Of a stretch of DNA of 52,932 nt, positions 6,249 through 52,932 are shown piece by piece. The stretch is taken from positions 1 to 52,932 of IMG/VR virus record IMGVR_UViG_3300045988_134091; one strand, written 5' to 3'. The notes below the pieces were generated by a model. It was given only the letters and a program-made list of their open reading frames with translations, searched no databases and was not told where the DNA came from. Each line of letters begins with the position of its first letter. Position 1 is the first letter of the stretch. Both the position numbers and the translations under genes were made by a program. This DNA is from a virus.

Positions 6249-6932
6249 ATGAGCAGAAAAGTCAAAGTCAACATGGAAGGTGTTGAGAGTTTCACCCGCT
6301 GCCCCGAAGGAGAGTGGCTGGCCCGTCTGAAGAAAGCTGAGATGGGTGAAGTGCAGGGTAGTGGTGATGACTGCATCAAGGCACAGTTTGAGGTCATCAA
6401 AGGCAGCGCCAAAGGAAATACTGTTTTTGAGACCTTCTCCCTGACCGAAAAGGCCCTGTGGAAGCTGAAAAGTTTCCTGGATGCAGTTGGCATGAAGTCC
6501 AATGGCAAGTTGACCCTGGACCTGGACAAGATGGAAGGCAAGGTGTGTATCATCGATGTCATCCATGATGAGTACAATGGCCAGAAGCGGGCCAAGATTT
6601 CTTCTTACATCAAGCCCGGTGAGGACGAAGATGATGAGGATGAGGACGACGATGACGAAGATGACGACATCGATGAGGACGATGAGGAGGAAGAAGCCCC
6701 CAAGAAGAAGGGCAAAAAGGCTGCTTCCAAGTCTGCTCCTGCCAAGAAGTCCAAGAAGCGTCCTGAGCCGGAAGATGAGGATGAAGACGAAGATGAGGAG
6801 GAAGATGAACCTGCTCCTGCCAAGTCTAAGAAGGGCAAGAAAGCTGCCCCTGCCAAGTCCAAGAAGAAAGCCAAGGATGAGGACGATGACGAAGACGATG
6901 AGGACGATGATTGGGAAGAGGACGATGACTGA
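6249..6932 (+). CDS. DUF669-like protein (putative ssDNA-binding) with long Lys-rich/acidic block tail ending DDDWEEDDD
   Basis: N-terminal PEGEWLARLKKAE...KAQFEVIKGSAKGNTVFETFSL pattern typical of DUF669; aromatic-acidic C-terminal tip as in SSB tails. Confidence 0.6.
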   Translation: MSRKVKVNMEGVESFTRCPEGEWLARLKKAEMGEVQGSGDDCIKAQFEVIKGSAKGNTVFETFSLTEKALWKLKSFLDAVGMKSNGKLTLDLDKMEGKVCIIDVIHDEYNGQKRAKISSYIKPGEDEDDEDEDDDDEDDDIDEDDEEEEAPKKKGKKAASKSAPAKKSKKRPEPEDEDEDEDEEEDEPAPAKSKKGKKAAPAKSKKKAKDEDDDEDDEDDDWEEDDD

Positions 6933-7022: not shown

Positions 7023-8018
7023 ATGGATTTGTATCATATACCGGGTGATACAGGCGGGGACTGGAGACTGGGAAAGTTTGTTGAGTATCAACATGAAGTC
7101 CCAAGCATCCATTACCGGGTTATGGGGCACTACATTGTTGACTGGGTACCAGATCGTGATGATGCTGTCATGATGTGTTGGTATATGTCGGCTACATACA
7201 ATGAAATAACCTGTATGCTGCTACAGGAACTGTTTGATTGGAGAAGCCTGACCCCAAAAACAGTGAAGGACTATTGCCAGAGATTTTGGCAGGAAACTAA
7301 ACCTGTACTTGACTTTGGGTCATCCCGAAGGTATGCCAAGAATATGGATTGGTTTCCAACCTTGATGGAGGCTTTTATCAGAACCACACACCGTAAACCC
7401 TACTCTTGGCTGCGAGGCTTAATTCAGGGTGATCCTGTGGAAGATTACAGACGGGTATTCAGTGCAGTTTCTGCCCTCCCCTACACAGGTAGGTTTGCAG
7501 CAGACCTGTTTATGGAGTCAGTCCTGTATTTGGGTGAGTATCTGGGCATAGAACTGACTGAGCCCTCCCTGTTAAACTGGAAAAAGTGCAGCAATCTCAC
7601 TTCCGGGTTGTTGAATATCTTCTATCGTGATGAGGAAGCAAATGAGTATGACAAGACTGGGAAACTCCCTGTGTCAGAAAAGTTCCTGACCAAGAAACTT
7701 GAAACTGTTCAGAGAAAGATTGAAAAGGTTTACCCTGAACAAGACAATGACATCAACCTATTCATTGGGAAAATCTGTAGCTTCAGAAACTTATTCAAAG
7801 CAACCCGTTATGGTGGATTTCATCATGACAGAGAGCTGGGTGTGCTGAGAGAGTACGAGCATGTATTGCCTGACTTTCAATACATTTGGGATAGGGCTTT
7901 TGACCTCAGAGAACAGATGTTTGATAAGCGGTTTCTTGGAGAGTTCCATGACTGGGATGGAATACGCCCAGAAAGAAAAAAGCTATGGCTGAGAGAGGGG
8001 TTGACTGGGGTTGAGTAG
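7023..8018 (+). CDS. Divergent paralog of the 47915 DNA base hypermodification protein (aGPT-Pplase / 5-hmdU-DNA-kinase helical-domain-like)
   Basis: Same length class as 47915-48922; shared GRFAADLF/GKFLSYQIF and CSFRNLFK/CFCELSKY motif positions; stop overlaps the start of the P-loop kinase; RBS tggagg upstream of ATG 7023. Confidence 0.4.
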   Translation: MDLYHIPGDTGGDWRLGKFVEYQHEVPSIHYRVMGHYIVDWVPDRDDAVMMCWYMSATYNEITCMLLQELFDWRSLTPKTVKDYCQRFWQETKPVLDFGSSRRYAKNMDWFPTLMEAFIRTTHRKPYSWLRGLIQGDPVEDYRRVFSAVSALPYTGRFAADLFMESVLYLGEYLGIELTEPSLLNWKKCSNLTSGLLNIFYRDEEANEYDKTGKLPVSEKFLTKKLETVQRKIEKVYPEQDNDINLFIGKICSFRNLFKATRYGGFHHDRELGVLREYEHVLPDFQYIWDRAFDLREQMFDKRFLGEFHDWDGIRPERKKLWLREGLTGVE

Positions 8019-8613
8019 AGTGCTGGTCAATGTACGGGGTTGTAACGGGGCTGGGAAGTCTACCATTCCCATGTCCATGATGGATGACCCTGAAATGTAT
8101 GTACACGAGATTATGGGGAGTGACGGGAAGAAAATAAGTGCCATCACCGTCTTTCCCTCCTATGGCTGGGTTGCCTTGGGAACATACTTCAACAAAACAG
8201 GTGGCCTGGATACCCTGAAGAACAATGCAGTTACCAAGCTGACTTTGTTCGCTGCCCTTGATGGGTTTCCTGAGTATGATGTGCTCCTGGAGGGCATTAT
8301 GGCAAGCACTATTCGCTCAACTTACATTGACTTGTTCCATGAAGTTGAGGACTACTACGGGAAGAAGCAGCTGAAGGTCATCGTGGTGTCCCTTCTCCCA
8401 CCCGTAGATGTGGCACTGAGCCGTGTTTATAAGCGCAATGGGGGTAAACCCATCAATGAAGCTGCGGTGGCAGGGAAGTGGAAGACTGTGGCAAGAAATG
8501 TGGCTGAATTTGCTGATGCTGGGTTCACCTCTATCAAAGTTAATTCCGCCAAGGTTAAAAAGAAGAACATGTTGCCGGCTTTTCTCAAGACCGTGAACAA
8601 ATACAGGGGGTAA
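8011..8613 (+). CDS. P-loop kinase, candidate 5-hydroxymethylpyrimidine DNA kinase (5-HMUDK-like)
   Basis: Walker A GCNGAGKST near the N-terminus; about 200 aa; translationally coupled to the upstream hypermodification-like gene. Confidence 0.5.
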   Translation: MSRVLVNVRGCNGAGKSTIPMSMMDDPEMYVHEIMGSDGKKISAITVFPSYGWVALGTYFNKTGGLDTLKNNAVTKLTLFAALDGFPEYDVLLEGIMASTIRSTYIDLFHEVEDYYGKKQLKVIVVSLLPPVDVALSRVYKRNGGKPINEAAVAGKWKTVARNVAEFADAGFTSIKVNSAKVKKKNMLPAFLKTVNKYRG

Positions 8614-8618
8614 CAAGA

Positions 8619-8906
8619 ATGGACAAAGTTCAGATTCATAAGCAGCTGTGTGACAGCATGCATGCTTTGTATGAGAGAAAAAACGCTGACTATGGTGACT
8701 CCTTCGCTCAGCTCAGAAAGAGATACCCCAATTTTGTATGTATGAGGTTGTTTGACAAGCTCAACCGTTTAGATACCATCATTCAGCCTGGGTATGAATG
8801 CAAGGTGTCTGACGAGAAGATTGAGGACACCCTGATGGACATAGCAAATTATGCCGTCATGGAGCTGACTGAGCGGAGAGCAGAAGGAGGATTCAATGAA
8901 GATTGA
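8619..8906 (+). CDS. DUF1599 / MazG-like all-alpha NTP pyrophosphohydrolase-fold protein
   Basis: KNADYGDSF...RLFDKLNRL...EDTLMDIANYAVM signature. Confidence 0.55.
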   Translation: MDKVQIHKQLCDSMHALYERKNADYGDSFAQLRKRYPNFVCMRLFDKLNRLDTIIQPGYECKVSDEKIEDTLMDIANYAVMELTERRAEGGFNED

Positions 8907-9030
8907 TACCAATTGGCTGGATGAGGCTGTGGCCATTATTTCCAAGGGTACAGCTGACAGGCTCACAAAAGGAAACATTACTGTATACCGGGTGACGAAC
9001 ATCATCCGGATTGATATCAAGGAGGTTTAA
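8896..9030 (+). CDS. Small hypothetical protein (44 aa, below the ORF-track cutoff)
   Basis: gaaggagg lies 5 nt upstream of ATG 8896; the stop lies immediately upstream of the RBS-preceded ATG 9032. Confidence 0.4.
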   Translation: MKIDTNWLDEAVAIISKGTADRLTKGNITVYRVTNIIRIDIKEV

Positions 9031-9031
9031 C

Positions 9032-9742
9032 ATGGTCACCGTATTTGAAGGAAGAACTGTAAATGACGCTTGGCTGGCTGGGTTCAATGCCCTTCAGACT
9101 CAGGCTGAGAAAGGATACACCGCTGACTCCAGAGACGGGGGTGTGGTTGGGGAGATTTGCGATGCGGTTTTCTGTATTGAAGACCCCACACGGAACATCG
9201 TGAGCAGCCCCATTCGCAAGATGCCTATGCGGTATGCTGTGGGTGAGCTGGCCTGGTATCTTTCTGGATCCAATAAGGTCAAGGACATCTCCCAGTTTGC
9301 CAAGAAGTGGGCTGACATCTCTGATGATGGCGAGACAAACAACTCTGCCTATGGTTGGAGAATCTTTGACAAGTTTGGTTTTGACCAGTGGCAGTACGTG
9401 AAGGAGCTGCTTTGGAAAGACCCCAGTAGCCGTCAAGCCGTTATCCACATCAAGGATGCAAACAATCAGCCTACCAAAGATGTACCCTGCACGGTGTATC
9501 TTCAGTTCTTCATCCGGGATGGAAAACTGAACCTGTCTACCCATATGCGCTCCAATGATATTTGGATGGGTGTACCCTATGATATGTTCAGCTTCTGCTT
9601 CCTTCAGATGTTGATGGCTATGCAGCTGGGTGTTGAGATTGGGCATTATACCCATTATGCTGGTTCTCTCCACATGTACGCCAGAGACTATGAAGCAGCC
9701 AAGAAAAACATTTCAGCGTTGCCTCAGGCATCTTCTAACTGA
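9032..9742 (+). CDS. ThyA-family deoxypyrimidylate hydroxymethylase (T4 gp42-like; Asp at the TS Asn177 position suggests dCMP)
   Basis: aggagg RBS; NNSAYGWRIF, DPSSRQAVIHI, PCTVYLQFFIRDGKL, MRSNDIWMGVPYDMF, GSLHMYARDY. Confidence 0.8.
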   Translation: MVTVFEGRTVNDAWLAGFNALQTQAEKGYTADSRDGGVVGEICDAVFCIEDPTRNIVSSPIRKMPMRYAVGELAWYLSGSNKVKDISQFAKKWADISDDGETNNSAYGWRIFDKFGFDQWQYVKELLWKDPSSRQAVIHIKDANNQPTKDVPCTVYLQFFIRDGKLNLSTHMRSNDIWMGVPYDMFSFCFLQMLMAMQLGVEIGHYTHYAGSLHMYARDYEAAKKNISALPQASSN

Positions 9743-9757
9743 GGGTGGGGTGGTATT

Positions 9758-10108
9758 ATGCGGGAAGGGCTTATCAAGTTTCTGATAAAGGTTCTTGATG
9801 AGAACAGAGATAAGCTGGTCTGGGAACACCTCTGTTATGCCCCCAAGGGCTTGTATTTGAAGTTTATTGACACCATGGGGATAGAGCGGTTTGAGATGGC
9901 TGATTTTGTGTCCAAATGGGCCAAGGAGGACTTCAATATTGACCTCCCCATGACAACCGCCAAGGACATTACCATTCTCCGGGAGCTTGTTCTGGACAAG
10001 TACAGTAGCGCATACCCCCATCTGCTGAGGAAGTCTGCTACAGATCACCAAGGCTGGGTCAGGGTTTGGGTATCAACACATATGGAAAGGGATTTACAAA
10101 GACAATGA
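9758..10108 (+). CDS. Hypothetical protein
   Basis: ORF track; ATGA overlap with the next gene. Confidence 0.5.
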   Translation: MREGLIKFLIKVLDENRDKLVWEHLCYAPKGLYLKFIDTMGIERFEMADFVSKWAKEDFNIDLPMTTAKDITILRELVLDKYSSAYPHLLRKSATDHQGWVRVWVSTHMERDLQRQ

Positions 10109-10497
10109 TTGAATCTACACAGTACAATGAGAAAGAGCTGTTCCCGCCCATCCTTGCGGTGGACTTTGATGGAACGCTGGTTGAAAACAAGTTCCCTGAG
10201 ATCGGGGAAGTCAACCCCGTGATTTGGGAAGCGGTATCTGCTTACAAAGCTGCGGGTTGGAAAATCATCTTGTGGAGCTGCCGAACAGAGACTATGCTTC
10301 AGGATGCGGTGGACTTCTGCGCATATCGGGGCTTGACCTTTGATGCTGTGAATGAAAACCTTCCTGAAGTTCAGGCATATTATGGCGGTGATACCAGGAA
10401 AGTGTTTGCCAATATGTACATCGATGACCGCTCCGCCGCCCTCTTTGTACAGCCGGATGTATCAGAGTTTGCCCCGGTCAATCTGGTATGGGGGTGA
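10105..10497 (+). CDS. HAD-superfamily hydrolase (putative nucleotidase/phosphatase)
   Basis: AVDFDGTL (DxDxT motif I); WSCRT (motif II-like); IDDR near the C-terminus. Confidence 0.6.
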   Translation: MIESTQYNEKELFPPILAVDFDGTLVENKFPEIGEVNPVIWEAVSAYKAAGWKIILWSCRTETMLQDAVDFCAYRGLTFDAVNENLPEVQAYYGGDTRKVFANMYIDDRSAALFVQPDVSEFAPVNLVWG

Positions 10498-42287: not shown

Positions 42288-42779
42288 ATGGAAAGCATTA
42301 AAGTCACCTCTCAGAATCAGCTTGATAAGCTGCCGACCAATTACATTGGAAGAATTTGCGTTTGCTTCGGGACTCCGATCAACCCCGCAATTATAAGAGG
42401 CGAGCATAAATACGCCACTATTCTAGTCGCTGGCCACAGTTGCGCGGTAGTTATGGGCGATGCCCACATCATCGCGCGCGACAGCAGCAGCGTTGTGGCA
42501 CTTGGCGGCAGCACTGTTGCGGCGCACAATAGCAGCCATGTCGAGGCACGAGACGTCAGCAGCGTTGTGGCTTTTGATTATAGCACCGTCGTCGCTTGGG
42601 ATCGCAGCCACGTCGAGGCACGCGGCCACGTATGCGTCGACGCGCGCGATGACAGTGAGATTAACGTCGTTATGCTGAACAACACCATTGTCGCGCGGGA
42701 CAACAGCAAAGTTGAGGCATGGAGCGGCAACAACATCACGGCGCTTGGCAACGCCACTGTCCTGTATTTTGATCTCTAA
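42288..42779 (+). CDS. Beta-solenoid-like repeat protein (about 8-residue xSxVxAxD repeats)
   Basis: SSHVEARD/VSSVVAFD/YSTVVAWD/RSHVEARG/HVCVDARD... tandem units; GC-rich; first gene after promoter A3. Confidence 0.65.
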   Translation: MESIKVTSQNQLDKLPTNYIGRICVCFGTPINPAIIRGEHKYATILVAGHSCAVVMGDAHIIARDSSSVVALGGSTVAAHNSSHVEARDVSSVVAFDYSTVVAWDRSHVEARGHVCVDARDDSEINVVMLNNTIVARDNSKVEAWSGNNITALGNATVLYFDL

Positions 42780-44110: not shown

Positions 44111-44380
44111 ATGAATGCTATCAATATTGGATTGGGCAACTTTGTCTCCGCAGACCGGGTGGTTGCCATTGTGAGTCCGGAATCTGCCCCCATCAAGCGT
44201 ATGGTACAGGAGGCCAAGGACAAGGGAACGGCAGTTGATTCCACCTATGGTCGTAGAACAAGAGGGGTGTTGATTATGGATAGCGGGCAGCTTGTGCTGT
44301 CCTCTCTCCAGCCCTCTACGATTGTTGCCAAGAGCACAACAAAGAATGCCAAAGAAAAGGCGGTTGATGACGATGACTGA
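44111..44380 (+). CDS. remA: RemA (DUF370) family DNA-binding regulator homolog
   Basis: [68 protein letters not shown] matches the B. subtilis RemA pattern recalled from memory. Confidence 0.85.
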
Positions 44381-45213: not shown

Positions 45214-45603
45214 ATGAATTACATATACATCAACACCCGTGACAATCGTCAGTACATCCTCAACCCCATGATCACAATGGGTGAGAAGGTTTGCTTGGTT
45301 GATATGGCCAATTGTGAGGACAAGTTTGTATCCCTCAAGACCTTGAAGCGGTGGTACAGCAAAACCATTACTGAGCAGCCTGTTGTTGAACTGCGGGCCT
45401 TTACTGGTATGAAGATTGGACTATTCCGGGCTGAGCTTGCTACCAATACCAACACTCTGTATCTGTGGACCAAGCAGAACAAGCTCCTGACCTTTGACCT
45501 AGATATGGGGAATCAGACCAATGCCAAGAATCCCAAGTTTGCCAATCGCATTCACGACACATACGACTTCTTGGAAAGCTCCTTGAACTGGGTTTTGTCT
45601 TGA
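45214..45603 (+). CDS. Early protein with C-terminal FTG domain
   Basis: gaggagg RBS; RAFTGMKIGLF...FDLDMGNQTN...KFANRI. Confidence 0.65.
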   Translation: MNYIYINTRDNRQYILNPMITMGEKVCLVDMANCEDKFVSLKTLKRWYSKTITEQPVVELRAFTGMKIGLFRAELATNTNTLYLWTKQNKLLTFDLDMGNQTNAKNPKFANRIHDTYDFLESSLNWVLS

Positions 45604-45686: not shown

Positions 45687-45733
45687 ACATACAGACCGGA
45701 ACACCTGTACATTTGAAAAGGAGATTGAATACA

Positions 45734-46483
45734 ATGAAAAAGACCATCATCACCTACACCAGCCGCAAGAATGCTTCCAAGGTTTACACCCTGGTTTCCT
45801 TCGATGAGGCCAATAACACCGCTGTTCTGACTGATTCCAATGGAACTGAGCACATCATGAAGCTGACCACTCTTCGCAAGACCTTCAAGAAGTCCGTTGA
45901 GGAAGTCGAGGTTGAGGAGCCCAAGACCGAAACCGAGACTATGACCAAGCATCAGAAGAGTGCCCTGAAGAATATCCGCTGCGGATACAACTGGGTCATC
46001 GGTGGCCTGGAAAACGCCGTTCAGGATGGTGAGATGGAAGAGATGCCCGCTGTCGAGGAGATGTTTGAGGAAGTGTACGATGAGGTTACCAGCTGCACCT
46101 TTGATGAAGGTTTCGGTGATTCCCAGGCTGCTCCCATCTGCATGAAGTTCGCTGGTAAGAAGTTCATCCGTGAGCAGATTGCCAAGCTGTTCCGGGCTGA
46201 TGGTTATGAGGTGTCTGAGGAACTGGTTGCTGTTCCTGAGCACAAGACTGGTCACAGCAACTTTGTAGATGGTGAGCGCATCAATCTCCGCAAGGATGAG
46301 GGCGAGAGAGTGGTCAAGGTCAGAGCCTTCACGGGTATGCTGATTGGGACATTCAAGGTGGAGAAGGAAACCAAGACCACCATCACCGTCAAGACTGCCA
46401 AAGGAAAGATGAAGTTTGATCGAGAAACTGGAATCCAGGTTAACTCGAACAACAAGAAGTTCGCCAACCGCATCGAAGTCTGA
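45734..46483 (+). CDS. Early protein with C-terminal FTG domain
   Basis: aaaggag lies upstream of ATG 45734; RAFTGMLIGTF...FDRETGIQVN...KFANRI. Confidence 0.65.
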   Translation: MKKTIITYTSRKNASKVYTLVSFDEANNTAVLTDSNGTEHIMKLTTLRKTFKKSVEEVEVEEPKTETETMTKHQKSALKNIRCGYNWVIGGLENAVQDGEMEEMPAVEEMFEEVYDEVTSCTFDEGFGDSQAAPICMKFAGKKFIREQIAKLFRADGYEVSEELVAVPEHKTGHSNFVDGERINLRKDEGERVVKVRAFTGMLIGTFKVEKETKTTITVKTAKGKMKFDRETGIQVNSNNKKFANRIEV

Positions 46484-46625: not shown

Positions 46626-46666
46626 ATATGCATGAGGCTGAATGGCCAGAAAAGGAGGTATCACCA

Positions 46667-47245
46667 GTGAAACAGTATCTGTTATCGGAGGAAGATCGCA
46701 AGAAGGACTTGTTGGAGCTGCTTGAAAAGAACAATGTTCCGCTTGAGTTGTTCCCGTATGAGTGGTTGTGTACCACAGATTTCTTCAGAGCACCTGCTTC
46801 AAAAGGATTCCACGCAGCATATCCGGGGGGATTGTATGACCACTGTGTAAATGTCACTTCCCAGCTCTTGGATATGAGAGACAAGGGAGTGACGCAAACT
46901 TGGGGCCGGGTTGAAAGCCCAATTATTGTGGGCATGCTACACGATGTCACAAAGATCGGTATGTACATCCTGAGTCAAGACATGAACCCAATCAAGCAGG
47001 GGATTGAAACATTTCACATCAAAAACCCTCTGTACAGCGGCTTTGGTGGACATGGGTATGATTCAGTATGCAAGATTGAACAGCACATGAGGCTGACAGA
47101 AGAGGAACGGTTGTGTATCAGATACCATATGGGTGCCTATGAGACAGATGATTGGAGCGGGTATGATAGAGCAATCAGAAAGTTTCCAAATGTACTCTGG
47201 ACACACACCGCTGATATGTTGGCCTCCAAACTGATGGAGGATTGA
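46667..47245 (+). CDS. HD-domain phosphohydrolase
   Basis: aaaggagg lies 8 nt upstream of GTG 46667; FHAAYPGGLYDHCVNV and MLHDVTKIG (H...HD) motifs. Confidence 0.65.
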   Translation: MKQYLLSEEDRKKDLLELLEKNNVPLELFPYEWLCTTDFFRAPASKGFHAAYPGGLYDHCVNVTSQLLDMRDKGVTQTWGRVESPIIVGMLHDVTKIGMYILSQDMNPIKQGIETFHIKNPLYSGFGGHGYDSVCKIEQHMRLTEEERLCIRYHMGAYETDDWSGYDRAIRKFPNVLWTHTADMLASKLMED

Positions 47246-47249
47246 AACA

Positions 47250-47918
47250 ATGGTTCTATACTCTGGGAACAAGGGGAAACCTCTCAAGAAAAGACACTCC
47301 AACCCGTACTGCATATTTTTCTTTATCTGCTGTGTGCTTCTGATGGCCTCAGTACTGTTGAATGTGAAGGCCATTAACCTGCTCAGGGCCTCTGTGGAAC
47401 AAACCAAACAGGCTATCTCTGTGGCAGAGGATGCACAGACGATTGCAAACCAGGCTGTGTACAATATGAGAACCACAAAATACCCTGAGCTTGAGCCTGA
47501 GTTATGCTGTGACAAGGAAGCCTATGTGGACTCTGTAGCGGCAGAATACCTGGCCAATGTTGCTTGGGGCGAGGCTCGTGGTTGCTCTGTGACAGAACAG
47601 GCAGCTGTTATGTGGTGTGTACTCAACAGAGTGGATAGCCCTTTGTACCCAGATTCTGTAGGGGAGGTTGTTACACAGAGGGCTCAATTTAATGGATATT
47701 CTGCAAGCAACCCGATTACTCCAGAGTTACTCCAGTTGGCTAATGATGTGTTGACCTATTGGTCTAAGGAGGATGACTCTGGCCGGGTTTTGCCAAAAGA
47801 ATATCTGTATTTCATCGGGGATGGTAAACATAACTATTTTTATAAAACATGGGGTGGCAATGCAACAGCTTGGGATTGGAGCTTGCCCAGCCCTTATAAG
47901 GAGGATACGATAAAATGA
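47250..47918 (+). CDS. SleB/CwlJ-family cell wall hydrolase with N-terminal signal-anchor TM
   Basis: YCIFFFICCVLLMASVLL TM; NVAWGEARGCSVTEQAAVMWCVLNRV...QRAQFNGY. Confidence 0.75.
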   Translation: MVLYSGNKGKPLKKRHSNPYCIFFFICCVLLMASVLLNVKAINLLRASVEQTKQAISVAEDAQTIANQAVYNMRTTKYPELEPELCCDKEAYVDSVAAEYLANVAWGEARGCSVTEQAAVMWCVLNRVDSPLYPDSVGEVVTQRAQFNGYSASNPITPELLQLANDVLTYWSKEDDSGRVLPKEYLYFIGDGKHNYFYKTWGGNATAWDWSLPSPYKEDTIK

Positions 47919-48922
47919 GAACCAAGCCTGCAGATACCCTGTATTGCGGAGTAGACAAGGAGCGCATCAAGAAAGCTAAACCTGTGCTGAATGAGCGCAA
48001 TCTTTTGTACCTGTACAATTTTATCAAGCGAAGATATGTCATCCACTTGAGAAAGGATGTTTTGAAGAAAGACCCACCCTGGACCAATGACCAAGTGCTG
48101 CGGAATTTCCGGTTCACCAACATTCGCCGAGAGCATGACAAGGAGAGCAAGTGGGTGATTGAGCACATCGCCAATAACCCTGAGCTGTCTTATGAGGACA
48201 AACTGCTCAATGCCATCCTTTTTCGGCTTTACAACAAGCATGAAACCGCTGAGCTGATTTCCATGCCGATCAAGTTCAGCCAAACCCCTGACTGGAATCC
48301 TGAGTGGTACAGAAGTCTGTTTGAAGCTGCTCTGGCTGAAGATCCTCATGTGAAGTTCTTTACTGGTGCATTTAACACCGGAGGCCTGAAGCGCGCCTTG
48401 AAATGGTATCTTCCCAAGGATGACCCAAAAAACAGTATGCCCATGAGGGTGCTTTGGTTTATCCAGTATCTTATTGGGGAAGACATCGTTGGTCAAGTGA
48501 AGAGCTGTACCAGACAAGATGAAGTATGTAATACATTGTCATCTTATATGGGTCTTGGGAAATTCCTTTCCTACCAGATTTTTGTTGATATGACTTATAT
48601 CAAGGAGTTTCCATTCTCTGAGAATGAGTACACACAGGCTGGCCCCGGCTGCGTTATGGGCCTCGACTATCTGTTTGAAGACAGAGATGGGATGACCTAT
48701 GAGGAATGTCTGTTTTGGCTGAGGGATAACCTGGACAGGCTGTTTGTGGAGGAGCTGGGAAAAGACTGGGATGCCAAACGGGTATTCTGGGATTTGCCTG
48801 AAGAAGACAGGTGCTTCAATGTTATGTCCCTGGAAAATTGCTTCTGCGAGTTGTCAAAGTACATCCGAGCCAAGGATGGAACAGGCAGACCTCGGAAAAA
48901 GTACAATGGTGGTGGAAGATGA
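47915..48922 (+). CDS. DNA base hypermodification protein family (aGPT-Pplase / 5-hmdU-DNA-kinase helical-domain-like)
   Basis: PPWTNDQVLRNFRFTNIRREHDKESKW signature plus GKFLSYQIFVDMTY...GPGCVMGL and ENCFCELSKY, recalled from phage thymidine-hypermodification genes. Confidence 0.55.
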   Translation: MRTKPADTLYCGVDKERIKKAKPVLNERNLLYLYNFIKRRYVIHLRKDVLKKDPPWTNDQVLRNFRFTNIRREHDKESKWVIEHIANNPELSYEDKLLNAILFRLYNKHETAELISMPIKFSQTPDWNPEWYRSLFEAALAEDPHVKFFTGAFNTGGLKRALKWYLPKDDPKNSMPMRVLWFIQYLIGEDIVGQVKSCTRQDEVCNTLSSYMGLGKFLSYQIFVDMTYIKEFPFSENEYTQAGPGCVMGLDYLFEDRDGMTYEECLFWLRDNLDRLFVEELGKDWDAKRVFWDLPEEDRCFNVMSLENCFCELSKYIRAKDGTGRPRKKYNGGGR

Positions 48923-49737
48923 TTCCTGTATTTGTACCATCCTATCAGAGACCTGACGCTGTATTTTTGAAGAGGAGTGTTCTGTACAAGTTTCCTCTAT
49001 ACGTGTTCATTCGCAAAGAAGAGAAAAGTGAATACGAGTGGCTGAAATGTCGCCCTGAAACAACCTTGGTTTTACTTAAGAATGTGGAAAACATTGGAGA
49101 AACCAGACGAGCAATGTTCAATTATGCTGTCAAGAAAGGAATTGACAAAGTTTTCATGATTGATGATGATGTTTCTCGGTTAGACATATCCGTGTGGGAT
49201 GAGGAAAGAGAAGTAGTTCGTGCTTCTGGAACAGTCAAAGGGAAACCTGAGGATTGGAGAAAGGCTCTGACCAAATGGGAGACCGAATGGGAAAATGAAG
49301 CCCTATTTGGTGCATCCTATCGCCCATTCAGCTGGTCTATGAAGAAAGAAGTGTTTGGAGGGAAAAGTCGGGCACAACTACAACAAGCTGTTGGTGTGAA
49401 TATTGCTCTTCTCAACTCTGCCGGCCTCAACTACCAAAGCAATTCTGTAGTTGGTAATGAAGATCTGTTTCTTCAACTGGAGTGCTATCAACATGGACTT
49501 GAGTGCCTAAAGACTTCTATGGTTCAGTATGACTGCCCAGCAATGGGTTCCGGTACAGGAGGATGCAACTCATCAGAATTGGGAACAATACAAGAAAAAC
49601 AAGAAGTCCGGGTAGAACGATTTTGTCGTGCTTGTACTGAGCCCTCTTTGATTCGTGTTGGCCAAACTCGTTCTGGCGTAAAGAGTGTGAAATTTGTTTG
49701 GTCACAAATTTCAAGATTGATGGAGGATACAAAATAA
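48919..49737 (+). CDS. GT-A-fold glycosyltransferase-like protein (TET/JBP-associated-glycosyltransferase-like)
   Basis: N-terminal IPVFVPSYQRPD strand; FMIDDDV (DxD); ATGA overlap with the upstream gene. Confidence 0.5.
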   Translation: MIPVFVPSYQRPDAVFLKRSVLYKFPLYVFIRKEEKSEYEWLKCRPETTLVLLKNVENIGETRRAMFNYAVKKGIDKVFMIDDDVSRLDISVWDEEREVVRASGTVKGKPEDWRKALTKWETEWENEALFGASYRPFSWSMKKEVFGGKSRAQLQQAVGVNIALLNSAGLNYQSNSVVGNEDLFLQLECYQHGLECLKTSMVQYDCPAMGSGTGGCNSSELGTIQEKQEVRVERFCRACTEPSLIRVGQTRSGVKSVKFVWSQISRLMEDTK

Positions 49738-50228
49738 TGAGTAAATTGAAAAGCCTGTGTCGGAAAGACTGTCTGGATATGGCTCAGTCCTATGCTGACA
49801 AAGTCAGTGGGTGTAGAAAAGTGGCAGTGGGTTCTGCCATTGTGAGTGCTGAGGGGAATGTTATTGCTATGGGGGCCAACCGGGCTGTGCCTGACTTGTG
49901 TAAAACACCCCGTGGATGCCTCCGTGTGGAAAAATATGGGGAGGATAGCAAGAATCACAGAAACCCTGAAGACTGCCGTGCAATTCACAGCGAGATTGAT
50001 GCCATTTGTAGTGCAGCCTCTTCTGGTGTGCCTGTAAAGGGTTCTTCCATTTTTGTAACCAGATACCCATGCGAGGGTTGTGCCAAAGCCATTATTGCTG
50101 CTGGTATCAAGAAGGTGTACTATGGTGGGACAGCCCATATAAGCCCGCAGACGGCAGTTATGTTCAGGGCCTTTGGTGTGGATTGTACCTATATCTCAGA
50201 CTGGAAGGAAGACAATAGTGATAGATGA
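49737..50228 (+). CDS. dCMP deaminase (ComEB/T4 Cd-like)
   Basis: CRAIHSEIDAI (HxE) and RYPCEGCAKAI (PCxxC); ggagg RBS; TAATG overlap. Confidence 0.85.
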   Translation: MSKLKSLCRKDCLDMAQSYADKVSGCRKVAVGSAIVSAEGNVIAMGANRAVPDLCKTPRGCLRVEKYGEDSKNHRNPEDCRAIHSEIDAICSAASSGVPVKGSSIFVTRYPCEGCAKAIIAAGIKKVYYGGTAHISPQTAVMFRAFGVDCTYISDWKEDNSDR

Positions 50229-50320: not shown

Positions 50321-50656
50321 ATGGAAAACACTGAACAGTTAGTTCTGCCCACTCTGCCTGTTACGCCTATATTGACCGAAGAAACCTGTACCAAATTGGT
50401 AGAGGCTTTTCAGGCCATTGGAGATGCTATTGTAAAAGCGTTTGAGCCTGTAGTATTGGCTATATCTGAGGTTGTAAATAGCCTGGTTATCCCCGTAGTA
50501 CAGGAGCTGATGAAAAAGCTGTTCAAGATTGCATCACCTTCCAAAGTGTATTATTTGGCATATCATGGAAAGAAGCGTCGAACAAGAAAGAAAAATCTGA
50601 AACGCTTGATGCGTTATTGGGAGGAATTCATCAATGGATGTTACAAGGTTCATTAA
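50321..50656 (+). CDS. Hypothetical protein with basic C-terminus
   Basis: ggaaggag lies upstream of ATG 50321, inside track ORF 50270-50656. Confidence 0.5.
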   Translation: MENTEQLVLPTLPVTPILTEETCTKLVEAFQAIGDAIVKAFEPVVLAISEVVNSLVIPVVQELMKKLFKIASPSKVYYLAYHGKKRRTRKKNLKRLMRYWEEFINGCYKVH

Positions 50657-51050
50657 CAAAAAGCAGCGGGAAGTTCTGGCAAGGGCAAGAAAAACTTATG
50701 GGGACACTGCCCAAATTCTGGTGTCTACGGAAGAACTGTGTGAGCTGGCTGCGGTCTGTTCCAAATACCCCCGGTACCAGACCAAGGAAAAGGCTCAGGA
50801 TGAGCTTCATGACAAGGCTGTAGATGAGGTTGCAGATGTCCTAATTGTACTTGACCATGTCATCAATATTTTTGGTTTGACTCCGGTTGATATTGGGGAC
50901 AGGATTGCTGGGAAGGTTGCCCGTCTGGAAAGATGGCTCAATACATCTAACAGCATGGAACAGACCACGGTAGACAGAAAGGTTCCTGGTCAGCTTCACA
51001 TCACAGAAATGTGCCAGGGAGGTTTGTTTGAGCCGATTGAGGAGGAATGA
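50634..51050 (+). CDS. MazG-like nucleoside triphosphate pyrophosphohydrolase
   Basis: EELCELAA...DEVADVLIVLDHV EExxE/D-type helices. Confidence 0.65.
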   Translation: MDVTRFINKKQREVLARARKTYGDTAQILVSTEELCELAAVCSKYPRYQTKEKAQDELHDKAVDEVADVLIVLDHVINIFGLTPVDIGDRIAGKVARLERWLNTSNSMEQTTVDRKVPGQLHITEMCQGGLFEPIEEE

Positions 51051-51053
51051 CGC

Positions 51054-52932
51054 ATGAAGCTGAGTGAGTTTGACTCTCTCATTGGTCAAGACAGCTATGT
51101 GCGTTGTATGGGAAAGAAGCGGTTGGACAACTCCATCGTGAACGAAAAGGCCGCAGACGCTCACCTGTTCTCTGGGGGACAGATTGGCTGGTGGGTGCGG
51201 TCTGGCTACATAGTTGTAGATATAGATGAAGGAAAAGAAGAAGCCATGAAAGTGGTGAAGAGGCTGGGTCTCAAAACTCTGATGGCTCAGACTCCAAAAG
51301 GGCTTCATCTGTATTTCAAATGTGATAAGGAATACCCCCAGCGGGTTGGAATGGTTCTCCCTTGTGGATTGAAATGTGACTTTCGCTGTGCCAATAAGGG
51401 TTATGTCATATTGCCTTTTGGGTCAGAGGGTCGCCGGTTCAATAAGTGCAGAAAGATTGCAGAGCTGCCACCTGAGTTTACACCGATGGTGAACCGCAAA
51501 GAAAGCCTGTTGGGGTTGAAAGATGGGGATGGAAGAAATGCAACCCTGTTTGCTCACCTTATGGCCTACAAGAACAGAGGTGCTTCAGATGAGCAGATTG
51601 AGGAAATGGCTGATGTTATCAACAGTATCATATTCGCTGACCCTATGGATGAGAAGGAACTGGAGAAAATTGTTGAGAACACCAGGAAATATGAGGCATC
51701 AAAGCAGTTCGACAACCCCTATCTGATTTACAGTGCAAAAGGAGTCCCCACAAATATCAACCATAGGGCTATCTGTGACTACTTTGTGAACAAAGGGGGC
51801 ATCTTTGTACTAGGCGGGGAGTGCTATCAATACCGGGATGGCGTGTATGTTGAAGCAAGCAGCCATGTCCGGAATACCATCAAGGATATGATTGTTGTGG
51901 ATACGCTTATCACACAAAATCGTATCATGGAGTGCTTCAGGTTGATTTGTGATGATGTGAGGCTTCAGCGGACTGCAGCCGAACTGAACCATGACAAAAA
52001 CCTTATCAATTTCCAGAACGGGGTTTGGGATATAGAACGAGGAGAGCTTTTGCCTCATGACAGCAAGTATCTCCAGACGCTTCAAATTCCGCACCCGGTT
52101 GGAGAGTATAAGCCATTCAAGGAAACCCGGCTGTATGACTTTTTCAAGAAAACCAACCTGCCCAAAGAGGACATCAAGATGCTGCTCAAATACATGGCCT
52201 ATTGTCTCACCTTGGACTACGGGTTGAAGACATTCATGATTCTCTGCGGTCAGTCCAATACCGGTAAATCTGTGTTGATTCGATTCTTTGAAAACCTTGT
52301 TGGCAAGCAAAATGTGTCCTCTCTGAGCATGCATGAGCTGAATATGCGGTTCTACCCATCCCAGCTGTACAATAGGTTACTGAACTCTTGTGCAGATAAC
52401 TCATCTTTGCCATTGTCATCTATTGAAAACCTGAAGAAGATTACAGGCGGTGACCAGATTATGCATGAGAAGAAGGGCAAGGAACCATTTTTCTTTGTGC
52501 CGTTCTGTAAGTTGATTTTTAGTTTCAACCAGTTACCGCTTCAGCTGGAAGAAAAGTCCAATGCATTCTACAAGCGCATGAGGATTCTGTTCATGAACAA
52601 TGAGTTGTTTTTGAACAATGACTATGTAAATGACCTATGTAGTGAGGAGAGTGTATCTGAGATTATTCCATACCTGCTTCATCTTCTGCCAGTGAAAGAC
52701 ATCCCTCGTACATCGACCAGTGACAAGTATGTGGAGGCACTGCGGCAGGATTCTGACAGCATCCACGCCTTCATTGCTAAACATTGTGAGCTGGGACCAG
52801 GGTTGTCTGTAGAGAAAAATGCACTATATGAGGCATACTGCCGGTTTTGTGTGGATACGGGCCGGGAAAACAGCAAAAAGCACTCTTTTATGAGAAATAT
52901 CCGCTCCCAGGGGTTCAAGGAATCAAGAGATG
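51054..52932 (+). CDS. Bifunctional prim-pol / D5-like SF3 helicase (continues to 105 across the junction)
   Basis: No stop before the window end; YIVVDIDEG and TPKGLHLYF (prim-pol); LCGQSNTGKS Walker A; LIFSFNQLP (SF3 motif). Confidence 0.85.
   Translation, partial: MKLSEFDSLIGQDSYVRCMGKKRLDNSIVNEKAADAHLFSGGQIGWWVRSGYIVVDIDEGKEEAMKVVKRLGLKTLMAQTPKGLHLYFKCDKEYPQRVGMVLPCGLKCDFRCANKGYVILPFGSEGRRFNKCRKIAELPPEFTPMVNRKESLLGLKDGDGRNATLFAHLMAYKNRGASDEQIEEMADVINSIIFADPMDEKELEKIVENTRKYEASKQFDNPYLIYSAKGVPTNINHRAICDYFVNKGGIFVLGGECYQYRDGVYVEASSHVRNTIKDMIVVDTLITQNRIMECFRLICDDVRLQRTAAELNHDKNLINFQNGVWDIERGELLPHDSKYLQTLQIPHPVGEYKPFKETRLYDFFKKTNLPKEDIKMLLKYMAYCLTLDYGLKTFMILCGQSNTGKSVLIRFFENLVGKQNVSSLSMHELNMRFYPSQLYNRLLNSCADNSSLPLSSIENLKKITGGDQIMHEKKGKEPFFFVPFCKLIFSFNQLPLQLEEKSNAFYKRMRILFMNNELFLNNDYVNDLCSEESVSEIIPYLLHLLPVKDIPRTSTSDKYVEALRQDSDSIHAFIAKHCELGPGLSVEKNALYEAYCRFCVDTGRENSKKHSFMRNIRSQGFKESRD
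52878..52932. repeat. Terminal direct repeat, copy 2 (identical to 1-55)
   Basis: Exact 55-nt match to the window start. Confidence 0.95.

What the first reader, a model, noticed from the sequence alone, without database searches (positions are those of the whole stretch)
7023..10497. Pyrimidine hypermodification locus I: hypermodification-like protein, P-loop kinase, DUF1599, hydroxymethylase, HAD
A run of overlapping or tightly packed genes encodes the following:
- a divergent paralog of the 47915 'DNA base hypermodification' protein
- a P-loop kinase (GCNGAGKST) whose start overlaps that gene's stop
- a DUF1599/MazG-like protein
- a 44-aa ORF
- a ThyA-family hydroxymethylase
- an unknown protein
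- a HAD hydrolase

In characterised phages (SP10, PhiW-14, ViI, M6) a 5-hmdU DNA kinase and aGPT-pyrophosphorylase-type enzymes convert hydroxymethylated bases in DNA into hypermodified thymidines. This phage has that logic, combined with a second paralog and a glycosyltransferase at locus II. I do not recognise that combination from any described modification pathway, so its DNA may carry an uncharacterised base.
Basis: partly seen in the sequence, partly recalled or inferred. Interest (0 to 1): 0.8.

Follow-up and report, generated by a model that had tools for sequence, protein, structure and literature searches.

The report
Phage DNA hypermodification cassette, cytosine-type entry
An uncultured phage lineage (host probably Bacillota) carries the kinase-plus-transferase machinery known for decorating thymine in phage DNA, but pairs it with a hydroxymethylase built for cytosine and a DNA glycosyltransferase, so its DNA probably contains an undescribed modified base.

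Summary
- 8011-8613 is a PF18748 5-hmdU-DNA-kinase homolog, 45% identical to the validated SP10 gp186.
- 8619-8906 is DUF1599.
- 9011-9742 is a ThyA-family hydroxymethylase.
- 10066-10497 is a HAD phosphatase.

Two points need correction.
1. The first protein (A, 7023-8018) is not a detectable paralog of the 47915 protein (PF18723). It is a Pfam-invisible subfamily of the amino acid:DNA transferase (AADT, ex-aGPT-Pplase2) superfamily. The evidence is fold matches to PaMx11 gp46 and profile continuity with PF18724. It keeps the catalytic Cys but lacks the metal-binding Glu.
2. The hydroxymethylase carries the T4 gp42 dCMP signature (L143D, D169, N177D, Ser/Arg deoxy residues). All 15 syntenic relatives scored share the three base/product positions. 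SP10, M6, PaMx11 and LysYB1 have Asn at the N177 position.

A is fused to the kinase in some relatives and to a TAGT glycosyltransferase in one protein, so kinase, transferase and glycosyltransferase belong to one pathway.

I cannot tell whether the kinase and transferase act on 5hmC, or on 5hmU made by deaminating 5hm-dCMP. Neither route has been described. Verdict: a new variant of a known kind.

The parts
7023..8018 (+). Protein A: divergent, Pfam-invisible member of the amino acid:DNA transferase (AADT / aGPT-Pplase2-3) superfamily. All-alpha. Conserved motif K-I-C252-S-F-R-N-L-F-K-x-x-R-Y-G-G-F-H-H-D-R. Predicted to transfer a nucleophile onto a phosphorylated 5-hydroxymethylpyrimidine in DNA.
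   Evidence: - No Pfam or NCBIfam hit.
- AF2 model: pLDDT 86, pTM 0.82.
- Foldseek against BFVD finds AADT-domain phage proteins at E 3e-7 to 4e-4.
- Best PDB match is 8z2n, PaMx11 gp46 (5-PmdU glycinyltransferase): probability 0.99, TM 0.52/0.58.
- An A-family profile search over 1.84e9 proteins gives 209 hits. Of 93 members scanned, 58 are PF18724.
- Cys252 aligns to the PUGT catalytic Cys247.
- A is fused to the kinase in P0090, P0139, L015 and L055, and to TAGT in P0172.
8011..8613 (+). P-loop kinase of the 5-hmdU DNA kinase family (Walker A GCNGAGKST). Predicted to phosphorylate the 5-hydroxymethyl group of a pyrimidine in DNA.
   Evidence: - PF18748, 9e-25, 87.7 bits against a cutoff of 27.
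- 45% identical to SP10 gp186, E=2e-41.
- 37% identical to M6 gp54, E=4e-19. Both are validated 5-HMUDKs (PMC8989533).
- Its start overlaps the stop of A.
8619..8906 (+). DUF1599, 'nucleotide modification associated domain 1'. Role inferred only: handling of the nucleotide pool.
   Evidence: - PF07659, 3e-10.
- phrog_1485, 3e-23.
- Conserved between the kinase (or GT) and ThyA in close relatives.
8896..9030 (+). 44-aa ORF, doubtful as a gene.
   Evidence: - No family hit.
- tblastn matches only in L006-L009; absent from L010 and L014.
9011..9742 (+). ThyA-family pyrimidine hydroxymethylase with the dCMP (T4 gp42-type) signature. The likely true start is ATG 9032. Predicted to be a 5-hydroxymethyl-dCMP synthase.
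   Evidence: - PF00303, 8e-29.
- The best PDB hit is MilA, a CMP hydroxymethylase, at 7e-34.
- Diagnostic residues are L143->D, C146, D169 kept and N177->D. Their meaning comes from PMC13326640.
- The deoxy-type Ser/Arg pair is present.
9758..10108 (+). Protein F: conserved orphan protein, always between the ThyA and HAD genes. Function unknown.
   Evidence: - 96 homologs. In the loci read, F is found only in the syntenic lineage, always between the ThyA and HAD genes.
- AF2 model with pLDDT 91.
- No PDB fold neighbour; best E=0.96.
- No Pfam, PHROG or NCBIfam hit.
10066..10497 (+). HAD-superfamily phosphatase. The likely true start is ATG 10105, overlapping the stop of F. Substrate unknown: a nucleotide, a phosphorylated donor, or a phosphate on DNA.
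   Evidence: - NCBIfam BT0820-family HAD phosphatase, 2e-28, below its cutoff.
- phrog_24386, 4e-34.
- Weak PF25109 PNKP-phosphatase match, 2e-3.
- 35% identical to LysYB1 gp56.
46628..47245 (+). HD-type metal-dependent phosphohydrolase. A candidate for remodelling the dNTP pool. Membership of the pathway is inferred from position only.
   Evidence: - phrog_28876 'metal-dependent phosphohydrolase', 4e-20, and phrog_5889, 5e-26.
- No BLASTP similarity to the M6 gp59 HD protein.
47915..48922 (+). PF18723 protein (ex-aGPT-Pplase clade 1, now '5-hmdU DNA kinase helical domain'). An accessory protein of kinase-dependent hypermodification whose activity is unknown.
   Evidence: - PF18723, 2e-63.
- 27-28% identical to M6 gp55 and PaMx11 gp50, E about 1e-20.
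- M6 gp55 was dispensable in vitro (PMC8989533).
- ATGA overlaps with both neighbouring genes.
48919..49737 (+). TET-associated-type DNA glycosyltransferase (GT-A). The mechanical ORF start is 48811. ATG 48919 fits the Pfam match and overlaps the upstream stop.
   Evidence: - PF20691, 9e-10, 39.3 bits against a cutoff of 27.5.
- phrog_842, 5e-13.
- In L011, L012, L015 and L055 the ortholog sits directly after the kinase.
- P0172 is a natural TAGT::A fusion.
49737..50228 (+). dCMP deaminase, translationally coupled to the GT gene. It either supplies dUMP or converts 5-hm-dCMP to 5-hm-dUMP.
   Evidence: - PF00383, 2e-16.
- Found upstream of locus I in 10 of the 11 syntenic relatives with the full 10-kb upstream flank: L006-L009, L013, L014, L018, L019, L023, L024. 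It is not detected in L028.
- TAATG overlap with the GT stop.

Best explanation
Loci I and II together encode a two-stage pyrimidine hypermodification pathway.

Stage 1 acts on nucleotides before replication.
- The ThyA homolog converts dCMP to 5-hydroxymethyl-dCMP. This is predicted from four diagnostic residues; it is not shown.
- DUF1599, the HD hydrolase, the HAD phosphatase and the dCMP deaminase reshape the nucleotide pools. This is inferred.
- The phage family A polymerase then builds hydroxymethylated pyrimidine into DNA.

Stage 2 acts on DNA.
- The PF18748 kinase phosphorylates the 5-hydroxymethyl group.
- Protein A, an AADT-superfamily enzyme, attacks C6 with its conserved Cys and expels the phosphate. 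It then lets a nucleophile add to the exocyclic methylene, as PaMx11 gp46 and M6 gp51 do. The identity of the nucleophile is unknown.
- The TAGT-type glycosyltransferase adds sugar, either to hydroxymethyl groups that were not converted or to a hydroxyl on the new adduct.
- The PF18723 protein is an accessory factor.

I lean, narrowly, towards the base on DNA being 5hmC. That would make this a cytosine counterpart of the known thymidine pathways.

Likelihoods:
- Core pathway (hm-pyrimidine, then kinase, then transferase, plus glycosyltransferase): about 0.8.
- Entry through 5-hm-dCMP: about 0.85.
- Cytosine as the target of the kinase and transferase: about 0.45.
For: ThyA homolog:
- It carries L143D, D169 and N177D. 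These are the positions that PMC13326640 uses to separate dUMP from dCMP substrates, methyl from hydroxymethyl products, and 5-hydroxy-dCMP synthases.
- It also has the deoxy-type Ser/Arg pair.
- All 15 syntenic relatives scored have the D-C-D-D signature, even where ThyA identity falls to 51% and A identity to 32%. SP10, M6, PaMx11 and LysYB1 have D-C-D-N.

Kinase:
- PF18748 at 87.7 bits.
- 45% identical to SP10 gp186 and 37% to M6 gp54.

Protein A:
- AADT fold.
- Profile continuity with PF18724.
- A conserved Cys that aligns to the PUGT Cys247.

Linkage of the parts:
- A::kinase fusions.
- A TAGT::A fusion.
- The GT gene lies directly after the kinase in L011, L012, L015 and L055.
- In unrelated phage backgrounds, A sits beside P-loop kinases together with TET/JBP dioxygenases. 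Hydroxymethylation there occurs on DNA, so the kinase and A must act on DNA.

Support for cytosine specifically:
- Characterised TAGT-type enzymes glycosylate 5hmC (PMC8256090).
- That paper also noted P-loop kinases and aGPT-Pplase genes in validated C5-MT/TET (5hmC) contigs.
Against: - The characterised 5-HMUDK phosphorylates 5hmU but not 5hmC in DNA (PMC6457204).
- The window kinase shows no sign of being a separate subfamily. It is as close to kinases from uracil-type contexts (SP10 45%, LysYB1 44%) as those kinases are to each other.
- The active-site motif of the A family is invariant between this lineage and the thymine-linked members, namely the T-dioxygenase cassettes and LysYB1 with its Asn-type ThyA. 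Only two positions are group-specific.
- A lacks the Glu of the essential Glu-Thr metal site of AADT. Its chemistry may therefore differ from that of AADT.
- No gene for a donor or for tailoring the adduct (PLP, rSAM, FAD, GATase, NDP-sugar synthesis) was found in the window.
- Nothing here is experimental.
Confidence: 0.45

Rival explanations
1. The genes and DNA-level chemistry are the same, but the target is uracil. The dCMP deaminase in the locus II operon converts 5-hm-dCMP to 5-hm-dUMP. This reverses the usual order, in which deamination comes before hydroxymethylation. 5hmU then enters DNA, and the kinase and A act on it exactly as in SP10, M6 and LysYB1. 5hmC may be incorporated alongside and glycosylated, so both pyrimidines could end up modified.
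For: - The known 5-HMUDK is specific for uracil.
- The kinase, A, the helical-domain protein and the HAD are 25-45% identical to their LysYB1 counterparts, and LysYB1 has an Asn-type dUMP hydroxymethylase.
- The active-site motif of A is the same in the T-dioxygenase cassettes.
- The deaminase is translationally coupled to the helical-domain and GT genes. It is found upstream in 10 of the 11 relatives with the full 10-kb upstream flank; L028 is the exception.
- From my own knowledge, not tested here: dCMP deaminases generally tolerate substituents at position 5.
Against: - No precedent exists for a phage making 5-hm-dUMP by deaminating 5-hm-dCMP.
- It is unexplained why this lineage would keep an Asp-type enzyme across deep divergence if uracil were the goal.
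- The deaminase could simply be feeding dTMP synthesis, as it does in T4.
- The deaminase is very divergent from any cultured-phage deaminase, so nothing can be read from its similarity.
Confidence: 0.35
2. This is a T4-like system and nothing more. The dCMP hydroxymethylase and the glycosyltransferase give glycosyl-5hmC. The P-loop protein is a nucleotide-level kinase for 5-hm-dCMP. A and the PF18723 protein are non-catalytic DNA-binding accessories.
For: - The window has no separate dNMP kinase, yet a pre-replicative 5hmC route needs 5-hm-dCMP to be phosphorylated.
- Some fused homologs also match PF01712 dNK.
- A lacks the AADT metal-binding Glu.
Against: - The kinase scores 87.7 bits on the DNA-kinase family PF18748 and is 45% identical to a validated DNA kinase.
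- It is fused or adjacent to an AADT-fold protein. The same pairing occurs beside TET/JBP enzymes, where a nucleotide kinase would have no role.
- L015 and L055 carry an additional small P-loop protein next to the fused A::kinase.
- The Cys motif of A is at least 90% conserved across the superfamily sample, which argues that A is catalytic.
Confidence: 0.1
3. This is ordinary nucleotide metabolism (thymidylate synthase, a nucleotide kinase, a phosphatase), and the DNA is not modified.
For: Generic annotation pipelines label these proteins as thymidylate synthase, terminase small subunit or kinase.
Against: - L143D and N177D are incompatible with a dTMP-forming enzyme according to the published diagnostics.
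- The NCBIfam thymidylate-synthase equivalog models score far below their cutoffs.
- PF18748, PF18723, TAGT and an AADT-fold protein are all families specific to DNA modification.
Confidence: 0.03

Closest known systems
Thymidine hypermodification pathways of phages SP10, PhiW-14, M6, PaMx11, ViI and SH-Ab 15599. Their parts are a dUMP hydroxymethylase, the 5-HMUDK kinase, an AADT (aGPT-Pplase2) and tailoring enzymes (PMC5889632, PMC8989533, PMC11472151, PMC13458397).
   Same: - A PF18748 kinase, 37-45% identical to validated members.
- An AADT-fold partner with a conserved Cys.
- A PF18723 paralog-type accessory protein.
- A ThyA-family hydroxymethylase.
- A dCMP deaminase and an HD-type hydrolase in the same early module.
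- Kinase-AADT gene fusions, as reported for metavirome contigs.
   Different: - The hydroxymethylase has Asp, not Asn, at the N177 specificity position, which is the dCMP type.
- The transferase belongs to a subfamily that PF18724 does not detect, and it lacks the essential Glu of the metal site.
- No PLP, rSAM, FAD or acetyltransferase tailoring genes are present.
- A TAGT glycosyltransferase is integral to the cassette and in one relative is fused to A.
T-even phage 5hmC pathway: T4 gp42 dCMP hydroxymethylase, gp1 dNMP kinase and the alpha/beta-glucosyltransferases.
   Same: - The ThyA homolog has the same D-C-D-D signature as gp42.
- A DNA glycosyltransferase and a dCMP deaminase are present.
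   Different: - T4 has no DNA-level kinase and no AADT-type or PF18723 protein.
- The GT here is a TAGT-type GT-A enzyme, not a T4 alpha/beta-GT.
- The window has no gp1-type dNMP kinase or recognisable gp56 dCTPase.
Phage C5-MT/TET and T-dioxygenase (5mYOX) hypermodification clusters (PMC8256090, PMC13229309).
   Same: - Distant A homologs lie in ParB_N - A - P-loop kinase - Tet_JBP cassettes and in Tet_JBP - A - AADT-like - kinase cassettes.
- TAGT is the glycosyltransferase family named after these clusters.
- A role for the P-loop kinase on 5hmC was hypothesised for some TET contigs.
   Different: Here the hydroxymethyl group is installed before replication by a ThyA homolog. The window has no TET/JBP, ParB or C5-MT gene.
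Lysinibacillus phage vB_LfM_LysYB1/2 (Spounavirinae), the only cultured phages with an A-family protein. Their DNA has not been characterised.
   Same: - gp48 (A-like, 45% identical).
- gp49 kinase (44%).
- gp51 PF18723 protein.
- gp54 ThyA homolog.
- gp56 HAD (35%).
   Different: - The LysYB1 ThyA homolog is the Asn (dUMP) type.
- gp48 carries an extra C-terminal domain of about 300 aa.
- No TAGT was detected in the region examined.

Membership tests
5-hmdU DNA kinase (5-HMUDK, PF18748) | P-loop (Walker A) kinase that matches the family model above its gathering score | tested here: met
   - GCNGAGKST motif.
- PF18748, 9e-25, 87.7 bits against a cutoff of 27.
5-hmdU DNA kinase (5-HMUDK, PF18748) | Sequence similarity to biochemically validated members | tested here: met
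   - SP10 gp186: 45% identity, E=2e-41.
- M6 gp54: 37% identity, E=4e-19.
- Both are validated in PMC8989533.
5-hmdU DNA kinase (5-HMUDK, PF18748) | Genomic pairing with an aGPT-Pplase/AADT-type partner | tested here: met
   - Its start overlaps the stop of A.
- The two are fused in P0139, L015 and L055.
5-hmdU DNA kinase (5-HMUDK, PF18748) | The substrate is 5-hydroxymethyl-uracil in DNA (the known enzyme rejects 5hmC) | tested here: inconclusive
   - The phage's only hydroxymethylase is the dCMP type.
- A deaminase could still supply 5hm-dUMP.
- The specificity of the known enzyme comes from PMC6457204.
- Resolving this needs biochemistry.
Amino acid:DNA transferase (AADT, PF18724, ex-aGPT-Pplase2) | Match to the PF18724 model | tested here: not met
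   - A has no Pfam hit at E<=0.1.
- Its 45%-identical relative LysYB1 gp48 reaches only 22.8 bits against a cutoff of 26.2.
- However, 58 of 93 proteins recruited by the A profile are PF18724 members.
Amino acid:DNA transferase (AADT, PF18724, ex-aGPT-Pplase2) | HhH-containing all-alpha fold as in PaMx11 gp46 (PDB 8z2n/8z2m) | tested here: met
   - Foldseek against PDB: top three hits are 8z2n/8z2m, probability 0.94-0.99, TM 0.48-0.58.
- Foldseek against BFVD: AADT-domain proteins at E 3e-7 to 4e-4, TM up to 0.74.
Amino acid:DNA transferase (AADT, PF18724, ex-aGPT-Pplase2) | Catalytic Cys (PUGT Cys247) that attacks C6 | tested here: met
   - Cys252 aligns to Cys247 in the global hhalign, although that alignment has low confidence.
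- Cys252 is conserved in at least 95% of the 55 A-family sequences and at least 90% of the 93 superfamily members.
Amino acid:DNA transferase (AADT, PF18724, ex-aGPT-Pplase2) | Essential Glu-Thr metal site four residues before the Cys (E-T-x-x-C) | tested here: not met
   - The A family proper has I, V or T at the Cys-4 position.
- The Glu reappears only in more distant members, whose consensus is ExxLC.
- The Glu-Thr site is essential according to PMC8989533 and PMC13458397.
   - BLASTP E=0.08.
- No Pfam hit.
- hhalign probability 0.8%.
- Foldseek to the PhiW-14 PF18723 protein: E=0.94, TM 0.42.
- The 47915 protein itself is a clear member at 2e-63.
dCMP hydroxymethylase (T4 gp42 type) | Catalytic Cys146; Asp at the ThyA N177 position (cytosine specificity) | tested here: met
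   - KDVPC and VPYD motifs.
- The criterion comes from PMC13326640 and PMC5175136.
dCMP hydroxymethylase (T4 gp42 type) | Asp or Glu at the L143 position (hydroxymethyl rather than methyl product), and Asp169 retained (so not a 5-hydroxy-dCMP synthase) | tested here: met
   - Asp lies three residues before the catalytic Cys, and the RSND motif is present.
dCMP hydroxymethylase (T4 gp42 type) | Ser167 and Arg126' (deoxyribose rather than ribose substrate) | tested here: met
   - MRSND and SSRQAV motifs in the alignment to MilA.
- The criterion comes from PMC5175136.
dCMP hydroxymethylase (T4 gp42 type) | Enzymatic conversion of dCMP to 5-hm-dCMP | not testable with these tools
   Needs an in vivo or in vitro assay, such as the one in PMC13326640.
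   The window protein and all 15 syntenic relatives scored have Asp. SP10, M6, PaMx11 and LysYB1 have Asn.
TET-associated glycosyltransferase (PF20691) | Match to the model above its gathering score | tested here: met
   39.3 bits against a cutoff of 27.5, residues 38-234.
HAD phosphatase superfamily | Motif I DxDx(T/V) and a family model match | tested here: met
   - DFDGT motif in the translation.
- NCBIfam BT0820-type, 2e-28. This is below the equivalog cutoff, so superfamily membership is supported but not that specific family.

The most novel reading that the evidence does not exclude
The kinase and the AADT-like protein act on 5-hydroxymethylcytosine in DNA through a 5-phosphomethyl-dC intermediate, and the fused or adjacent glycosyltransferase completes the product. 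This would be the first kinase-dependent cytosine hypermodification. It would also be a new hypermodified base, carried by an uncultured phage lineage whose host is probably Bacillota.
Probability: 0.35. Interest if true: 0.85.

Novelty: new variant of a known kind. Interest (0 to 1): 0.7.

Why it matters
- Every characterised kinase/AADT pathway decorates thymine, and the one tested DNA kinase rejects 5hmC. This lineage stably pairs that machinery with a cytosine-type hydroxymethylase. Either the chemistry has been extended to cytosine, or there is an unreported route to 5hmU through deamination of 5-hm-dCMP, possibly with both pyrimidines modified.
- In either case the result would be a new DNA base and new enzyme specificities. 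A 5hmC DNA kinase, or a metal-site-less AADT variant, could be useful for labelling or sequencing 5hmC.
- It also defines a small AADT subfamily that current Pfam and NCBIfam models miss (209 clusters among 1.84 billion representatives), so hypermodification surveys undercount it.
- Such modifications would also bias sequencing and restriction-based analysis of viromes that contain this phage.

Tried and rejected
- Direct paralogy between A and the 47915 protein: BLASTP, Pfam and hhalign were all negative.
- Nucleotide similarity to known phages: megablast of the locus found nothing.
- Cultured phages with A: only the Lysinibacillus phages LysYB1/2 have one.
- 5-hydroxy-dCMP synthase (RB69/DLP3 type) for the ThyA homolog: rejected, because D169 is retained.
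- CMP (ribo) hydroxymethylase like MilA: rejected, because Ser and Arg replace Ala and Lys.
- Using the HD hydrolase or the deaminase to decide between C and U: the HD protein has no similarity to M6 gp59. The deaminase is too divergent from any cultured-phage deaminase to be informative.
- Published 5-HMUDK structural data on base recognition: none in the text I could read, and no PDB sequence match for the kinase.
- Specificity-determining positions in A between the Asp-ThyA lineage and the thymine-linked members: only R102K and W110R, which I cannot interpret.
- Protein F: a homolog search, a confident AF2 model, a PDB profile search and a fold search gave no functional lead.
- Additional tailoring or donor-synthesis genes in the window: none found.
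- Literature on a 5hmC DNA kinase: nothing beyond a hypothesis in PMC8256090.

Full report
OBSERVATION

They are tightly packed.
- A's TAG stop (8016-8018) lies inside the kinase ORF, which starts at TTG 8011.
- The ThyA homolog most likely starts at ATG 9032, behind an AAGGAGG site.
- The HAD gene most likely starts at ATG 10105, an ATGA overlap with the stop of F.

GC and AT skew show that + strand genes run from about 42 kb to the window end and from 1 to about 15 kb. Loci I and II therefore lie in one early/replication module. That module also holds a D5-type primase-helicase, a family A DNA polymerase, a PD-(D/E)XK nuclease, AAA_24, DUF669 and an SNF2 helicase.

FAMILY ASSIGNMENTS

Pfam confirms three of the locus I calls:
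- the kinase as PF18748, '5-hmdU DNA kinase' (9e-25, 87.7 bits against a cutoff of 27);
- DUF1599 (3e-10);
- Thymidylat_synt (8e-29).

The HAD protein is confirmed by an NCBIfam BT0820-type match (2e-28, below that model's cutoff) and by its DFDGT motif.

In locus II:
- 47915-48922 is PF18723 (2e-63). This family was formerly called aGPT-Pplase1 and is now named the '5-hmdU DNA kinase helical domain'.
- The next gene is a TET-associated glycosyltransferase (PF20691, 9e-10).
- A dCMP deaminase follows (2e-16).
- The genes for the cell-wall hydrolase, the helical-domain protein, the GT and the deaminase overlap start to stop.

The 44-aa ORF is conserved only in very close relatives and is doubtful as a gene.

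Protein F has 96 homologs. In the loci I read, it occurs only in the syntenic lineage, always between the ThyA and HAD genes. It has a confident AF2 model (pLDDT 91) but no structural or sequence neighbour of known function.

WHAT PROTEIN A IS

A has no Pfam, NCBIfam or named PHROG match. It shows no similarity to the 47915 protein (BLASTP E=0.08; hhalign probability 0.8%).

Several lines of evidence place A in the AADT superfamily instead.
- An AF2 model built from 30 homologs is good (pLDDT 86, pTM 0.82, all-alpha).
- Foldseek against viral models returns AADT-domain proteins: Mycobacterium phage Fortunato (3e-7, TM 0.74), LilMcDreamy, and Salmonella phage 38 (4e-4). The PhiW-14 PF18723 protein scores only E=0.94.
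- The only meaningful PDB neighbours are 8z2n and 8z2m, PaMx11 gp46, the 5-PmdU glycinyltransferase (probability 0.94-0.99, TM 0.48-0.58).
- An exhaustive profile search with the A alignment finds just 209 clusters among 1.84 billion representatives.
- Of 93 members scanned, 58 are bona fide PF18724 (AADT) proteins and 6 match aGPT-Pplase3.
- LysYB1 gp48, 45% identical to A, gives a sub-threshold PF18724 hit.

A is thus a divergent subfamily of the AADT superfamily.

A global profile alignment places the family-invariant Cys252 on the PUGT catalytic Cys247 (mechanism from PMC11472151). Cys252 is at least 90% conserved across the superfamily sample. The Glu of the essential Glu-Thr metal site is absent from the A family proper.

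FUNCTIONAL LINKAGE

- A is fused N-terminally to the PF18748 kinase in about a dozen of its top 120 homologs, and in L015 and L055.
- P0172 is a natural TAGT::A fusion. Its GT half is 31% identical to the window GT.
- In L011, L012, L015 and L055 the GT gene sits directly after the kinase.
- In unrelated phage backgrounds A lies in ParB_N - A - P-loop kinase - Tet_JBP cassettes, in Tet_JBP - A - AADT-like - kinase cassettes, and in rSAM - A - kinase cassettes. These match the T-dioxygenase hypermodification clusters of PMC13229309. Hydroxymethylation there happens on DNA, so A and its kinase partner work on DNA.
- The window kinase is 45% identical to SP10 gp186 and 37% to M6 gp54. Both are validated 5-HMUDKs.

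THE TWIST: A CYTOSINE-TYPE HYDROXYMETHYLASE

The best solved relative of the ThyA homolog is MilA, a CMP hydroxymethylase (7e-34). PMC13326640 gives experimentally grounded diagnostics:
- N177: Asn indicates dUMP, Asp indicates dCMP.
- L143: a hydrophobic residue indicates a methyl product, Asp or Glu a hydroxymethyl product.
- D169: Asn marks a 5-hydroxy-dCMP synthase.

PMC5175136 adds Ser167 and Arg126' as markers for deoxyribose.

The window enzyme reads D, D, D plus Ser and Arg, which is the T4 gp42 pattern. All 15 syntenic relatives scored share D-C-D-D, down to 51% ThyA identity.

THE UNRESOLVED POINT

Two observations pull against a cytosine target.
- The characterised 5-HMUDK phosphorylates 5hmU but not 5hmC (PMC6457204).
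- A's active-site motif is essentially identical in thymine-linked members and in this lineage.

LysYB1 also carries the same module with an Asn-type ThyA homolog: A, kinase, PF18723 protein and HAD at 25-45% identity.

Two readings remain.
- (Z) The kinase and A have come to accept 5hmC. PMC8256090 raised this possibility only as a hypothesis, for C5-MT/TET contigs.
- (Y) The operon-linked deaminase converts 5-hm-dCMP to 5-hm-dUMP, so that 5hmU enters DNA, perhaps together with 5hmC.

I put Z at about 0.45 and Y at about 0.35. A T4-like reading with a nucleotide-level kinase gets about 0.1. I found no report of either Z or Y.

The window contains no PLP, rSAM, FAD, GATase or NDP-sugar genes. 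The nucleophile used by A and the sugar donor presumably come from the host.

CONTEXT

The phage has no cultured relative.
- The nearest family A polymerase is from a rodent-gut virome contig (56% identity), followed by Clostridium perfringens phages (36%).
- IMG/VR holds contigs whose protein A is identical to the window's (L006, L007).
- A RemA-like gene suggests a Bacillota host.

VERDICT

- This is a new variant of a known kind.
- Interest is about 0.7. The value lies in a testable prediction of either a 5hmC DNA kinase/transferase system or a reversed-order route to 5hmU, and in defining an AADT subfamily that current models miss.

Noticed in passing
window 44111-44380 (+): A RemA-like protein (PF04025, 1.7e-31) is encoded among the early genes. 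RemA is a regulator of biofilm-matrix genes in Bacillota. Here it hints at a Bacillota host and possibly at manipulation of the host.
   Followed up: no
window 47250-47918 (+): A SleB-type cell-wall hydrolase (PF07486, 2e-10) with a hydrophobic N-terminus lies inside the modification operon. Its stop overlaps the start of the PF18723 gene (ATGA). This is an odd position for a lysis-type enzyme.
   Followed up: no
window 45214-45603 and 45713-46483 (+): Two neighbouring ORFs share a similar C-terminal segment, read by eye from the translations: VELRAFTGMKIGLFRAE...KFANRI and VKVRAFTGMLIGTFKVE...KKFANRI. Neither has a Pfam hit. They look like a paralogous pair of unknown function.
   Followed up: no
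window 42288-42779 (+): A 163-aa protein is built from degenerate short repeats (...ARDSSSVVA / AHNSSHVEARDVSSVVAF...), which suggests a beta-helix-like repeat protein. It has no Pfam hit.
   Followed up: no
window 6249-6932 (+): The DUF669 protein (a candidate ssDNA-binding protein) has a long tail of alternating runs, strongly acidic (D/E) and then lysine-rich.
   Followed up: no
window 50634-51050 (+): A 138-aa protein has EExxE...ExxD-like motifs that resemble MazG-type NTP pyrophosphatases. This is my reading only; it has no Pfam or NCBIfam hit. It is conserved upstream of locus I in relatives and may belong to pool remodelling.
   Followed up: partly
L008, L009, L010, L014 (e.g. L008:11594-12019): Close relatives carry an extra dUTPase-family gene (PF00692, 2.7e-12) inserted between the kinase and DUF1599. 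The window lacks it.
   Followed up: partly
L055:2838-3377 and L015:5498-6139: Relatives with the A::kinase fusion encode a second small P-loop protein (GKAGVGKDT motif) between the GT and ThyA genes. It has no Pfam hit. It could be the nucleotide-level kinase for the hydroxymethylated dNMP.
   Followed up: partly
L067 (Logan SRR9866660 contig, 4.7 kb): The TAGT::A fusion protein P0172 is preceded by a HAD hydrolase and an Fe-ADH_2 (glycerol-1-phosphate-dehydrogenase-like) gene. This may hint at a polyol or phosphorylated donor for the transferase.
   Followed up: no
L002 (Lysinibacillus phage LysYB1, gp48-gp56): A cultured Spounavirinae phage carries an uncharacterised module with an Asn-type ThyA homolog: an A-like protein with an extra 300-aa C-terminal domain, a kinase, a PF18723 protein and a HAD. 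Its DNA is probably hypermodified at thymine and could be analysed directly.
   Followed up: partly
window 51054-52931 (+) and window ends: The primase-helicase ORF runs to the last bases of the window without a stop. Relatives are contigs of 49-53 kb. The window is probably a near-complete, permuted genome cut inside this gene.
   Followed up: no
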